Shown here: piece by piece, positions 21,006 through 21,025 of the stretch
Numbering within the stretch: the stretch's first letter is position 1
Layout: each line of letters begins with the position of its first letter
Sequence record: OM386655.1
From: Escherichia phage vB_EcoM_ESCO10
Direction: 5' to 3' (one strand)
DNA length: 64,000 nucleotides
Translations under genes and position numbers: made by a program
The notes under the pieces: generated by a model
Databases searched by the model: none
What the model saw: the letters and a program-made list of their open reading frames with translations, nothing else
Told to the model about the DNA's origin: nothing

Positions 21006-21025
21006 GAGGGAGACTTCGGTCTCCC
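21006..21025. other. UUCG-tetraloop hairpin, identical to the one after gene 23
   Basis: GAGGGAGAC-TTCG-GTCTCCC between genes 21033..21626 and 20448..20984; no adjacent U-run on the minus strand. Confidence 0.45.

What the first reader, a model, noticed from the sequence alone, without database searches (positions are those of the whole stretch)
21006..21025. Identical UUCG-tetraloop hairpin at two distant sites, in opposite genomic contexts
GGGAGAC-TTCG-GTCTCCC occurs at 21008-21025 between two early genes and again at 59048-59065 after the major capsid gene 23, where it is followed by a T-rich tract and likely terminates late transcription. At the early site no U-run follows on the coding strand. 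The exact reuse suggests a mobile or functionally selected RNA element (stability or processing site) rather than chance.
Basis: seen in the sequence. Interest (0 to 1): 0.4.

Follow-up and report, generated by a model that had tools for sequence, protein, structure and literature searches.

The report
T4-type terminator hairpin, one loop flipped
The repeated 18-base hairpin is an ordinary, already-known T4-type stem-loop that ends or stabilises messenger RNAs; the only unusual point is that its four-base loop has been flipped at the early-gene site in this phage.

Summary
GGGAGACTTCGGTCTCCC occurs exactly twice, at 21008-21025 and 59048-59065 on the + strand. The window is a JS98/VR5-like T4-type phage (Dhakavirus).

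Site B follows gene 23, carries a T-rich tail and is a canonical intrinsic terminator. T4 has a differently stemmed UUCG hairpin at the same place, annotated as a potential terminator.

Site A lies between an e.6 homologue and the next gene, both on the minus strand. The mRNA loop there is therefore CGAA, not UUCG. All database relatives checked (49 Dhakavirus records, 316 T4-type records) carry UUCG on the sense strand at this site. The window has an exact four-base loop inversion, which is why both copies read the same on one strand.

The same flip occurs at site B in two other phages, one of which differs from an apparent sibling isolate (P3/P4) only at the loop across 601 aligned bases.

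The 18-mer is not mobile. Its flanks are unrelated and the complete VR5 genome has only these two copies. The same sequence sits in at least 114 distinct contexts in unrelated viral contigs, mostly followed by a T-run. This is convergent reuse of a generic terminator design. It is a known kind of element and of low interest.

The parts
21008..21025 (-). Site A hairpin. The sense (minus-strand) RNA is GGGAGAC-CGAA-GUCUCCC. It is a loop-inverted allele of the conserved e.6 3' intercistronic UUCG hairpin.
   Evidence: Seven Dhakavirus relatives, including VR5 with identical flanks, have TTCG on the sense strand. The inverted allele has 0 hits in INPHARED.
20991..21002 (-). GGAGGAGAGGAG tract directly 3' of hairpin A on the sense strand. 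It is the Shine-Dalgarno region of the downstream ORF and contains three GGAG motifs, which are candidate RegB cleavage sites.
   Evidence: Sequence read. The sense context is UCUUUGGAGGAGAGGAGAAUAUUAUG. The RegB consensus is GGAGRAYARAA and the classic substrate is CUUUGGAGGG (PMC1702504).
21033..21626 (-). e.6 homologue (197 aa), the gene whose 3' end carries hairpin A.
   Evidence: 100% protein identity to VR5 e.6 and 74% to T4 e.6.
20448..20984 (-). 178-aa ORF downstream of hairpin A. It is a hypothetical protein with no Pfam match.
21670..21698 (-). Strong sigma-70-type (early-type) promoter match, TTTACA-17-TATAAT, just upstream of the e.6 start.
   Evidence: 11 of 12 matches. This is a consensus match only.
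59046..59067 (+). Site B hairpin AUGGGAGAC-UUCG-GUCUCCCAU (9-bp stem; the 18-mer is 59048-59065), read here as the gene 23 terminator hairpin.
   Evidence: local fold z = -2.97. The allele is present in 89 phage records.
59068..59077 (+). T-rich tail TCTTGTTTCT of the site B terminator.
57472..59031 (+). Gene 23 (major capsid protein), upstream of hairpin B.
59081..59362 (-). 93-aa ORF convergent with gene 23. Hairpin B sits between the two convergent stop codons.
10828..11286 (-). regB (RegB endoribonuclease). It is relevant to the proposed processing next to hairpin A.
   Evidence: PF10715, E = 5.6e-69.

Best explanation
Both copies belong to the well-known class of short GC-rich, purine-arm stem-loops with an extra-stable tetraloop that fill intergenic regions of T4-type phages and act on the RNA.

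Site B (59046-59067 plus its T-rich tail) is the intrinsic terminator of the late gene 21-23 transcript.

Site A is the conserved stem-loop at the 3' end of the e.6 cistron in a minus-strand prereplicative gene cluster. Its U-tract is poor and varies between lineages, and it is followed at once by the next gene's GGAG-rich ribosome-binding site. I infer that it works mainly as a 3'-end barrier and stabiliser for e.6 mRNA, for example after RegB or RNase cleavage in the GGAG tract. I expect at most leaky termination there.

The two copies are identical because terminator stems are drawn from a small repertoire (a purine-rich 5' arm closed by C-G), not because the element moves.

In this phage the 4-nt loop at site A has been inverted in place, UUCG to CGAA on the mRNA. 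The most likely mechanism is a template switch or recombination between the perfect 7-bp arms. That puts TTCG on the + strand at both sites. The flip costs the mRNA hairpin only its tetraloop bonus and is probably young and nearly neutral or slightly deleterious.

Shown: the sequences, the strand assignments, the loop states in relatives, the covariation and the orientation bias. Inferred: the termination and stabilisation roles, the RegB link and the mechanism of the inversion.
For: Identity and context.

Generic design: the exact 18-mer occurs in at least 120 IMG/VR stretches. In 114 distinct contexts, 75 have a T-run 3' only, 15 have runs on both sides, 4 have an A-run 5' only and 20 have neither. 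The comparator GGAGGAC-TTCG-GTCCTCC gives 108 stretches, with 41 against 2.

Complete VR5 genome: the 18-mer occurs exactly twice, both in sense orientation. Of 28 intergenic perfect tetraloop hairpins, 17 have sense UUCG, 6 have sense GNRA and none is antisense-oriented. Stems recur (AAGGAACC x3, AAGGAGC x2, GGAGGC x2). In the window, 7 of 8 such hairpins are sense-oriented and the exception is site A.

Structural conservation at site A: T4 has GGGGC-UUCG-GCCCC, and other lineages have GGAGGAC-UCCG, GGGCCUC-CUCG and GGGGGC-UUU. Four of the 5 inner pairs covary and 100% of cells are paired.

Loop inversion: VR5 has identical flanks over 90 nt and differs only by the reverse-complemented loop, in a region that is 94.3% identical. 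Sense against inverted allele counts at site A are 316:0 (T4-type), 47:0 (JS10-type) and 2:0 (VR5-type).

The same kind of flip elsewhere: L138 has AAA where L137 and L140 have TTT at site A. At site B, UGJNEcP3 and Serratia phage LC53 are inverted against 89 normal records. UGJNEcP3 and UGJNEcP4 differ in 601 nt only by the 4 loop bases.

Energetics: -12.0 kcal/mol for the UUCG form against -11.1 for the CGAA form.

RegB: regB is present in the window. The RegB site rules, and the statement that T4 intergenic UUCG stem-loops include terminators, are in PMC1702504.

[quoted passage not shown] Loop inversion by template switching is described in PMC8794818.
Against: No transcript 3'-end data exist for this phage, so both the termination and the stabilisation roles are inferred.

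The site A tail (UCUUUGG) does not meet the simple terminator criterion, and its real termination efficiency is unknown.

The RegB link rests on motif resemblance only: 9 of 11 positions match GGAGAAUAAAA, and 9 of 10 match the CUUUGGAGGG substrate.

The covariation alignment was anchored by hand on the hairpins, so it leans toward the structure.

The strong genome-wide orientation bias implies that the flipped allele may not be fully neutral.

The fact that only Dhakaviruses share one stem at both sites is also compatible with an old copying event.
Confidence: 0.75

Rival explanations
1. The hairpin was copied between the two sites. Either the + strand site B sequence overwrote the loop at site A in this phage by short-patch ectopic gene conversion or an inter-site template switch, or an older B-to-A copying event created the Dhakavirus site A stem. 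On this view the identity reflects a weakly mobile or homogenising element.
For: The product (TTCG on the + strand at both sites) is exactly what conversion from site B would give. Only Dhakaviruses share one stem at both sites, whereas T4 uses two different stems. VR5 has a third related copy, AAAGGAGAC-TTCG-GTCTCCTTT, about 700 nt upstream of site A.
Against: Only 7 bp of homology lies on each side of the loop, and nothing outside the 18-mer changed. The same flip happens at site B in UGJNEcP3 and LC53, and at a differently stemmed site A hairpin in L138, where in-place inversion is the simpler explanation. The 18-mer arose in at least 114 unrelated contexts, and stems recur generally.
Confidence: 0.1
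2. Site A is a fully functional, efficient intrinsic terminator that ends the e.6 transcription unit. The downstream genes would then depend on other promoters.
For: The hairpin lies 7 nt after the e.6 stop codon and about 640 nt downstream of a strong early-type promoter. Some lineages have a better U-tract (L153 UUUUGG, L141 UUUG).
Against: The tail UCUUUGGAGG (T4: UAUUACUUGG; VR7-like: UAAUUGGG) fails the T-run criterion and is not conserved, while the stem is conserved. The next gene's ribosome-binding site starts 6 nt after the stem, with no promoter match in between.
Confidence: 0.2
3. The site A element works on the + strand, as an antisense RNA with a UUCG loop, or at the DNA level as a cruciform or protein-binding palindrome. 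The + strand UUCG would then be the functional form.
For: In this window the extra-stable loop is on the + strand. The DNA palindrome is the same in both orientations.
Against: All relatives carry CGAA on the + strand. No T-run follows on the + strand. No late-promoter core lies on the + strand anywhere upstream of site A in the window. The 23:0 sense bias of stable tetraloops genome-wide argues for selection on the mRNA strand, which a DNA-level role would not produce.
Confidence: 0.04
4. The inverted loop at site A is a sequencing or assembly artefact, or one of two forms coexisting in the phage stock.
For: The allele is unique among about 365 database records at this site. The apparently sibling isolates UGJNEcP3 and UGJNEcP4 differ only by such a flip, which could also reflect mixed populations.
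Against: Assemblers do not normally reverse-complement four bases inside an 18-bp palindrome. Independent records from different laboratories show the same type of change at other sites.
Confidence: 0.08

Closest known systems
C(UUCG)G hairpins of bacteriophage T4 mRNA (Tuerk et al. 1988, as recounted in PMC4371310), including the T4 gene 23 'potential transcription terminator' annotated in X01774.1
   Same: It has the same loop, the same C-G closing pair, the same intergenic location and the same two homologous positions, after gene 23 and after e.6. Durand et al. also note T4 intergenic stem-loops, such as terminators, that often carry UUCG (PMC1702504).
   Different: The stem sequence differs: GGGAGAC here, against AGGGAACC and GGGGC in T4. 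In this window the site A copy presents CGAA, not UUCG, on the mRNA.
Canonical bacterial intrinsic (Rho-independent) terminators
   Same: Site B has a GC-rich stem, a tetraloop and a T-rich tail after a highly expressed gene, between convergent ORFs. The identical 18-mer is followed by a T-run in most unrelated viral contexts.
   Different: Site A lacks a proper U-tract and abuts a ribosome-binding site. It behaves more like an intercistronic stabiliser.
Minute hairpin-loop inversions: chloroplast 3' inverted repeats such as trnH-psbA (PMC2903610) and template-switch loop inversions in rRNA and miRNA hairpins (PMC8794818)
   Same: The spacer between perfect inverted repeats is exactly reverse-complemented and the flanks are untouched. 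The change recurs and is homoplasious among close relatives, and it affects an mRNA 3' stem-loop.
   Different: Here it occurs in a T4-type phage and swaps an extra-stable UUCG tetraloop for a non-special CGAA loop. I found no report of it for phage terminators in the literature searches I ran.
RegB endoribonuclease target sites in T4 early mRNAs
   Same: GGAG motifs lie in the Shine-Dalgarno region of a prereplicative gene, with an A/U-rich 3' context. regB is encoded in the window.
   Different: Only a partial consensus match, and cleavage is untested. The GGAG inside the stem (GGGAGAC) would be structured and so probably resistant (PMC1702504).

Membership tests
Intrinsic (Rho-independent) terminator | Stable GC-rich stem-loop | tested here: met
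   The isolated 18-mer folds at -12.0 kcal/mol (UUCG form) or -11.1 kcal/mol (CGAA form). Site B has a 9-bp stem and site A a 7-bp stem.
Intrinsic (Rho-independent) terminator | U-rich tract immediately 3' of the stem on the transcribed strand | tested here: inconclusive
   Site B meets it (TCTTGTTTCT, called by the scan). Site A does not meet it on either strand: UCUUUGGAGG on the minus strand and AGUAACAUUA on the plus strand.
Intrinsic (Rho-independent) terminator | Transcripts actually end there | not testable with these tools
   This needs Term-seq, 3' RACE or in vitro transcription.
cUUCGg extra-stable tetraloop hairpin (T4 class) | UUCG loop closed by C-G on the RNA that is made | tested here: inconclusive
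   Site B meets it (+ strand gene, + strand TTCG). Site A does not meet it in this window, where the sense loop is CGAA. Site A does meet it in 49 Dhakavirus and 316 T4-type records.
cUUCGg extra-stable tetraloop hairpin (T4 class) | Structure conserved with compensatory stem changes at the homologous position | tested here: met
   Five stem versions exist at site A. Four of 5 inner pairs changed on both sides and 100% of cells are paired (the alignment was anchored by hand).
Mobile or repeated palindromic element (REP/MITE-like) | Shared sequence beyond the palindrome, or many genomic copies | tested here: not met
   Identity extends 1 nt beyond the 18-mer. The window has 2 copies and the complete VR5 genome has exactly 2.
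Hairpin-loop inversion (template-switch or minute inversion) | The spacer is the exact reverse complement of the ancestral spacer, perfect inverted repeats flank it, and the flanks are unchanged | tested here: met
   The window and VR5 are identical over the 90 nt shown except TTCG against CGAA. It is the only mismatch run of 3 or more in its 1254-nt alignment block. Of 149 such runs window-wide, only one other is an exact reverse complement, a 3-mer in a diverged region, as expected by chance. The outgroups fix the ancestral state.
RegB cleavage site | Single-stranded GGAG followed by an A-rich consensus (GGAGRAYARAA), with regB present | tested here: inconclusive
   GGAGAAUAUUA matches 9 of 11 positions. 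UCUUUGGAGGA resembles the CUUUGGAGGG substrate. regB is present. Cleavage is not testable here.
Any curated Rfam family | Covariance-model match | tested here: not met
   No match at site A even at E up to 10. In the whole window only two tRNAs reach the gathering score.

The most novel reading that the evidence does not exclude
The perfect-palindrome terminator and intercistronic hairpins of T-even-type phages are hot spots for reversible in-place loop inversion. The flip moves the extra-stable UUCG tetraloop from the sense to the antisense strand. If it measurably changes termination or mRNA stability, it would act as a heritable, reversible expression switch at specific genes, such as e.6 and its downstream genes or the gene 23/24 boundary.
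Probability: 0.07. Interest if true: 0.55.

Novelty: new member of a known kind. Interest (0 to 1): 0.2.

Why it matters
The practical value is mostly in annotation. The result shows that an exact repeat of a short hairpin in a phage genome need not mean mobility, because terminator stems come from a small, convergently reused repertoire.

The small extra is a clean natural example of hairpin-loop inversion in phage terminators: four cases, including an apparently sibling pair of isolates that differ only by the flip in the 601 nt compared. It offers a simple natural experiment on how much the UUCG tetraloop itself, as opposed to the stem, contributes to termination or mRNA stability in vivo. 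It also shows that such four-base clusters should be scored as one mutational event in phage phylogenies.

Tried and rejected
- Mobile element: rejected. There is no flank similarity and only two copies in the complete VR5 genome.
- The 18-mer is specially favoured: rejected. A same-composition stem is about as frequent in IMG/VR, 108 stretches against at least 120.
- A curated RNA family at the site: none.
- Function on the + strand at site A: no upstream + strand late-promoter core and no T-run.
- Searches for the window's allele or the normal allele in JGI metagenomes, and for the window's allele in GTDB genomes: 0 hits each. This is uninformative because the site itself is absent from those collections.
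It added only two useful lineages.
- The L141 e.6 homologue is frameshifted and was left out of the protein alignment.
- Tuerk et al. 1988 is not held in the library, so it is cited through PMC4371310 and from memory.
- I found no genome-wide 3'-end data set for T4-type phages.

Full report
**Observation.** The 18-mer GGGAGACTTCGGTCTCCC is present at 21008-21025 and 59048-59065 on the + strand. No other match with up to three mismatches exists on either strand, and 0.01 matches are expected from shuffles. Identity between the two places stops one base outside the 18-mer.

**What the window is.** Megablast places the window in the JS98/JS10/VR5 group of T4-type phages, genus Dhakavirus.

**Context of site B.** Site B lies 15 nt after the stop codon of gene 23 (57472-59031, +). 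It sits before a small convergent ORF (59081-59362, -) and gene 24.

**Context of site A.** Site A lies 7 nt after the stop of the e.6 homologue (21033-21626, -) and 23 nt before the start of a 178-aa ORF (20448-20984, -). Both flanking genes are on the minus strand. The mRNA at site A therefore reads GGGAGAC-CGAA-GUCUCCC followed by UCUUUGGAGGAGAGGAGAAUAUUAUG.

**Site B function.** The stem is 9 bp (59046-59067), the loop is UUCG and the tail is TCTTGTTTCT. The consensus scan calls it a terminator, and the local fold is better than shuffles (z = -2.97). T4 has AGGGAACC-TTCG-GGTTCCCT plus TTTTTTC at the same place. GenBank X01774.1 annotates that T4 hairpin as 'pot. transcription terminator (gene 21, 22, 23)'. 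The Dhakavirus-type allele, with its flanks, is found in 89 phage records, including Enterobacter, Serratia and Kosakonia phages. I read site B as the late terminator after gene 23. This is inferred from anatomy and homology and has not been measured.

**Site A is a conserved RNA structure.** The homologous e.6 3' intergenic region carries a perfect hairpin in every lineage I could sample, with five different stems:
- GGGAGAC-UUCG in Dhakavirus
- GGGGC-UUCG in T4 and 316 T4-type records
- GGAGGAC-UCCG in L153
- GGGCCUC-CUCG in L141
- GGGGGC-UUU in three VR7-like genomes

On an alignment anchored on the loops, four of the five inner pairs change on both sides and every cell pairs. The anchoring was by hand, so the count leans toward the structure.

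The tail after the stem is not conserved: UCUUUGG, UAUUUGG, UAUUACUUGG, UAAUUGGG or UUUUGG. It fails the T-run criterion in this window. What is conserved is a hairpin followed almost at once by the next gene's GGAG-type ribosome-binding site. regB is encoded in the window (10828-11286, PF10715, E = 5.6e-69). The sequence 3' of the hairpin resembles RegB substrates: CUUUGGAGG against the classic decamer CUUUGGAGGG, and GGAGAAUAUUA against GGAGRAYARAA (PMC1702504).

I therefore commit to this reading. Hairpin A is an intercistronic 3'-end barrier and stabiliser for e.6 mRNA, with at most leaky termination. This step is inference.

**Why the two copies are identical.** In 114 non-redundant contexts, 75 have a T-run only on the 3' side of the UUCG-oriented strand, 15 have runs on both sides, 4 have an A-run only on the 5' side and 20 have neither. 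A stem of the same composition, GGAGGAC-TTCG-GTCCTCC, gives 108 stretches, split 41 to 2.

In the complete genome of VR5, the closest relative, the 18-mer occurs exactly twice, at the same two sites. Other stems also recur: AAGGAACC three times, AAGGAGC twice and GGAGGC twice. Stems are drawn from a small repertoire of purine-rich 5' arms closed by C-G, so exact reuse is expected without mobility.

**The loop inversion.** In VR5, 17 intergenic hairpins carry UUCG and 6 carry GNRA on the sense strand, and none has the stable loop on the antisense strand. In the window 7 of 8 follow the rule, and the exception is site A.

All seven Dhakavirus relatives fetched have TTCG on the sense (minus) strand at site A. 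VR5, whose e.6 protein is 100% identical, matches the window at every one of the 90 flanking bases shown and differs only in that TTCG is replaced by its reverse complement. The surrounding 1254 nt are 94.3% identical, and this is the only run of three or more consecutive mismatches in that block. Window-wide, the only other reverse-complement run among 149 is a 3-mer in a diverged region, as expected by chance.

Allele-specific megablast gives these counts at site A, sense against inverted: 316:0 for T4-type, 47:0 for JS10-type and 2:0 for VR5-type.

**The inversion recurs.**
- At site A, one VR7-like genome has AAA where its two relatives have TTT.
- At site B, 2 of 91 records are inverted: Escherichia phage UGJNEcP3 and Serratia phage LC53, which is a different genus.
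- UGJNEcP3 and UGJNEcP4 have the same record length, and over 601 aligned bases they differ at exactly the four loop positions.
- The T4-type gene 23 terminator shows 56:0.

Loop inversion between perfect arms is a known mutation type, attributed to template switching (PMC8794818). It is well documented for chloroplast 3' stem-loops (PMC2903610). Short-patch conversion from the other copy would give the same product at site A and cannot be excluded. It is less economical, given the flips at other hairpins.

**Consequence of the flip.** Turner-model energies are -12.0 kcal/mol for the UUCG form and -11.1 kcal/mol for the CGAA form. From memory of the tetraloop literature, the experimental bonus of cUUCGg is larger than that. 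The stem is untouched, so function is probably retained. The 23:0 orientation bias and the absence of the allele from all relatives suggest it is young and mildly disfavoured. No late-promoter core lies on the + strand upstream of site A in the window, and no T-run follows there. A + strand function is therefore unlikely.

**Comparison with known elements and verdict.** The element belongs to the class of C(UUCG)G hairpins first described in T4 mRNA (PMC4371310; Tuerk et al. 1988, from memory). Site B is a member of the intrinsic-terminator class on anatomical criteria. Site A is the homologue of the T4 e.6/e.5 hairpin, but in this window it fails the 'UUCG on the mRNA' criterion because of the flip. 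No Rfam family matches.

The finding is real but ordinary. The one point of modest interest is the recurrent loop flip, a known mutational phenomenon for which I found no report in phage terminators.

Noticed in passing
L385 (OV876907.1 20960-21599) against L386 (OV877765.1 108100-108900): Escherichia phages UGJNEcP3 and UGJNEcP4 have the same record length. Over 601 aligned bases around the gene 23 terminator they differ at exactly four positions, the hairpin loop (CGAA against TTCG). This looks like a very recent or segregating loop flip between apparently sibling isolates.
   Followed up: partly
window 53645-53678: The UUCG hairpin AAGGAGC-TTCG-GCTCCTT (53661-53678) starts about 9 nt after a late-promoter core TATAAATA (53645) and has no T-run after it. 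It probably sits at the very 5' end of a late transcript, as a 5' stabiliser, rather than acting as a terminator. VR5 has the same arrangement at 97900.
   Followed up: no
window 38238-38268 and 45337-45368: These are terminator-promoter modules. The hairpins GGGCC-GCAA-GGCCC and AAAAGGGC-TTCG-GCCCTTTT are each followed within 5-10 nt by a late-promoter core TATAAATA (38261 and 45361).
   Followed up: no
window 62014-62033: The hairpin AAAGGGCC-TTGC-GGCCCTTT lies between convergent genes and is called as a terminator on both strands. The stable GNRA loop (GCAA) and the better T-run are on the minus strand.
   Followed up: no
window 21641-24604 compared with VR5 (L274): The region upstream of e.6 has no counterpart in VR5. 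VR5 carries a third related hairpin there, AAAGGAGAC-TTCG-GTCTCCTTT (VR5 67097). The window instead has two extra small ORFs (21703-22101 and 22159-22476) and a GAAA-loop terminator at 22634-22657 on the minus strand. Elsewhere identity to VR5 is mosaic: 76-88% across 25-46 kb (baseplate and fibre genes) and 92-98% in the other aligned blocks.
   Followed up: partly
window 23912-23985 and 23993-24064 (minus strand): There are two adjacent tRNA genes, the only Rfam gathering-level hits in the window.
   Followed up: no
window 59449-60729 and 60730-62013: There are two tandem paralogues of the gene 24 capsid vertex protein, as annotated in VR5 (capsid vertex protein I and II).
   Followed up: no
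L138 against L137 and L140 (IMG/VR isolate genomes of about 170-171.5 kb), 15-40 nt after the e.6 stop: The hairpin GGGGGC-AAA-GCCCCC in one genome contrasts with GGGGGC-TTT-GCCCCC in two relatives. This is an independent three-base loop inversion at the homologous site, accompanied by one adjacent A-to-G change.
   Followed up: partly
VR5 genome (L273-L276): 130477, 160280, 169467, 66377: About a third of the sense-UUCG intergenic hairpins have no U-tract and are followed directly by a Shine-Dalgarno sequence (GGAGG or GAGGA). This suggests a distinct 'hairpin then ribosome-binding site' class of intercistronic elements in these phages.
   Followed up: no
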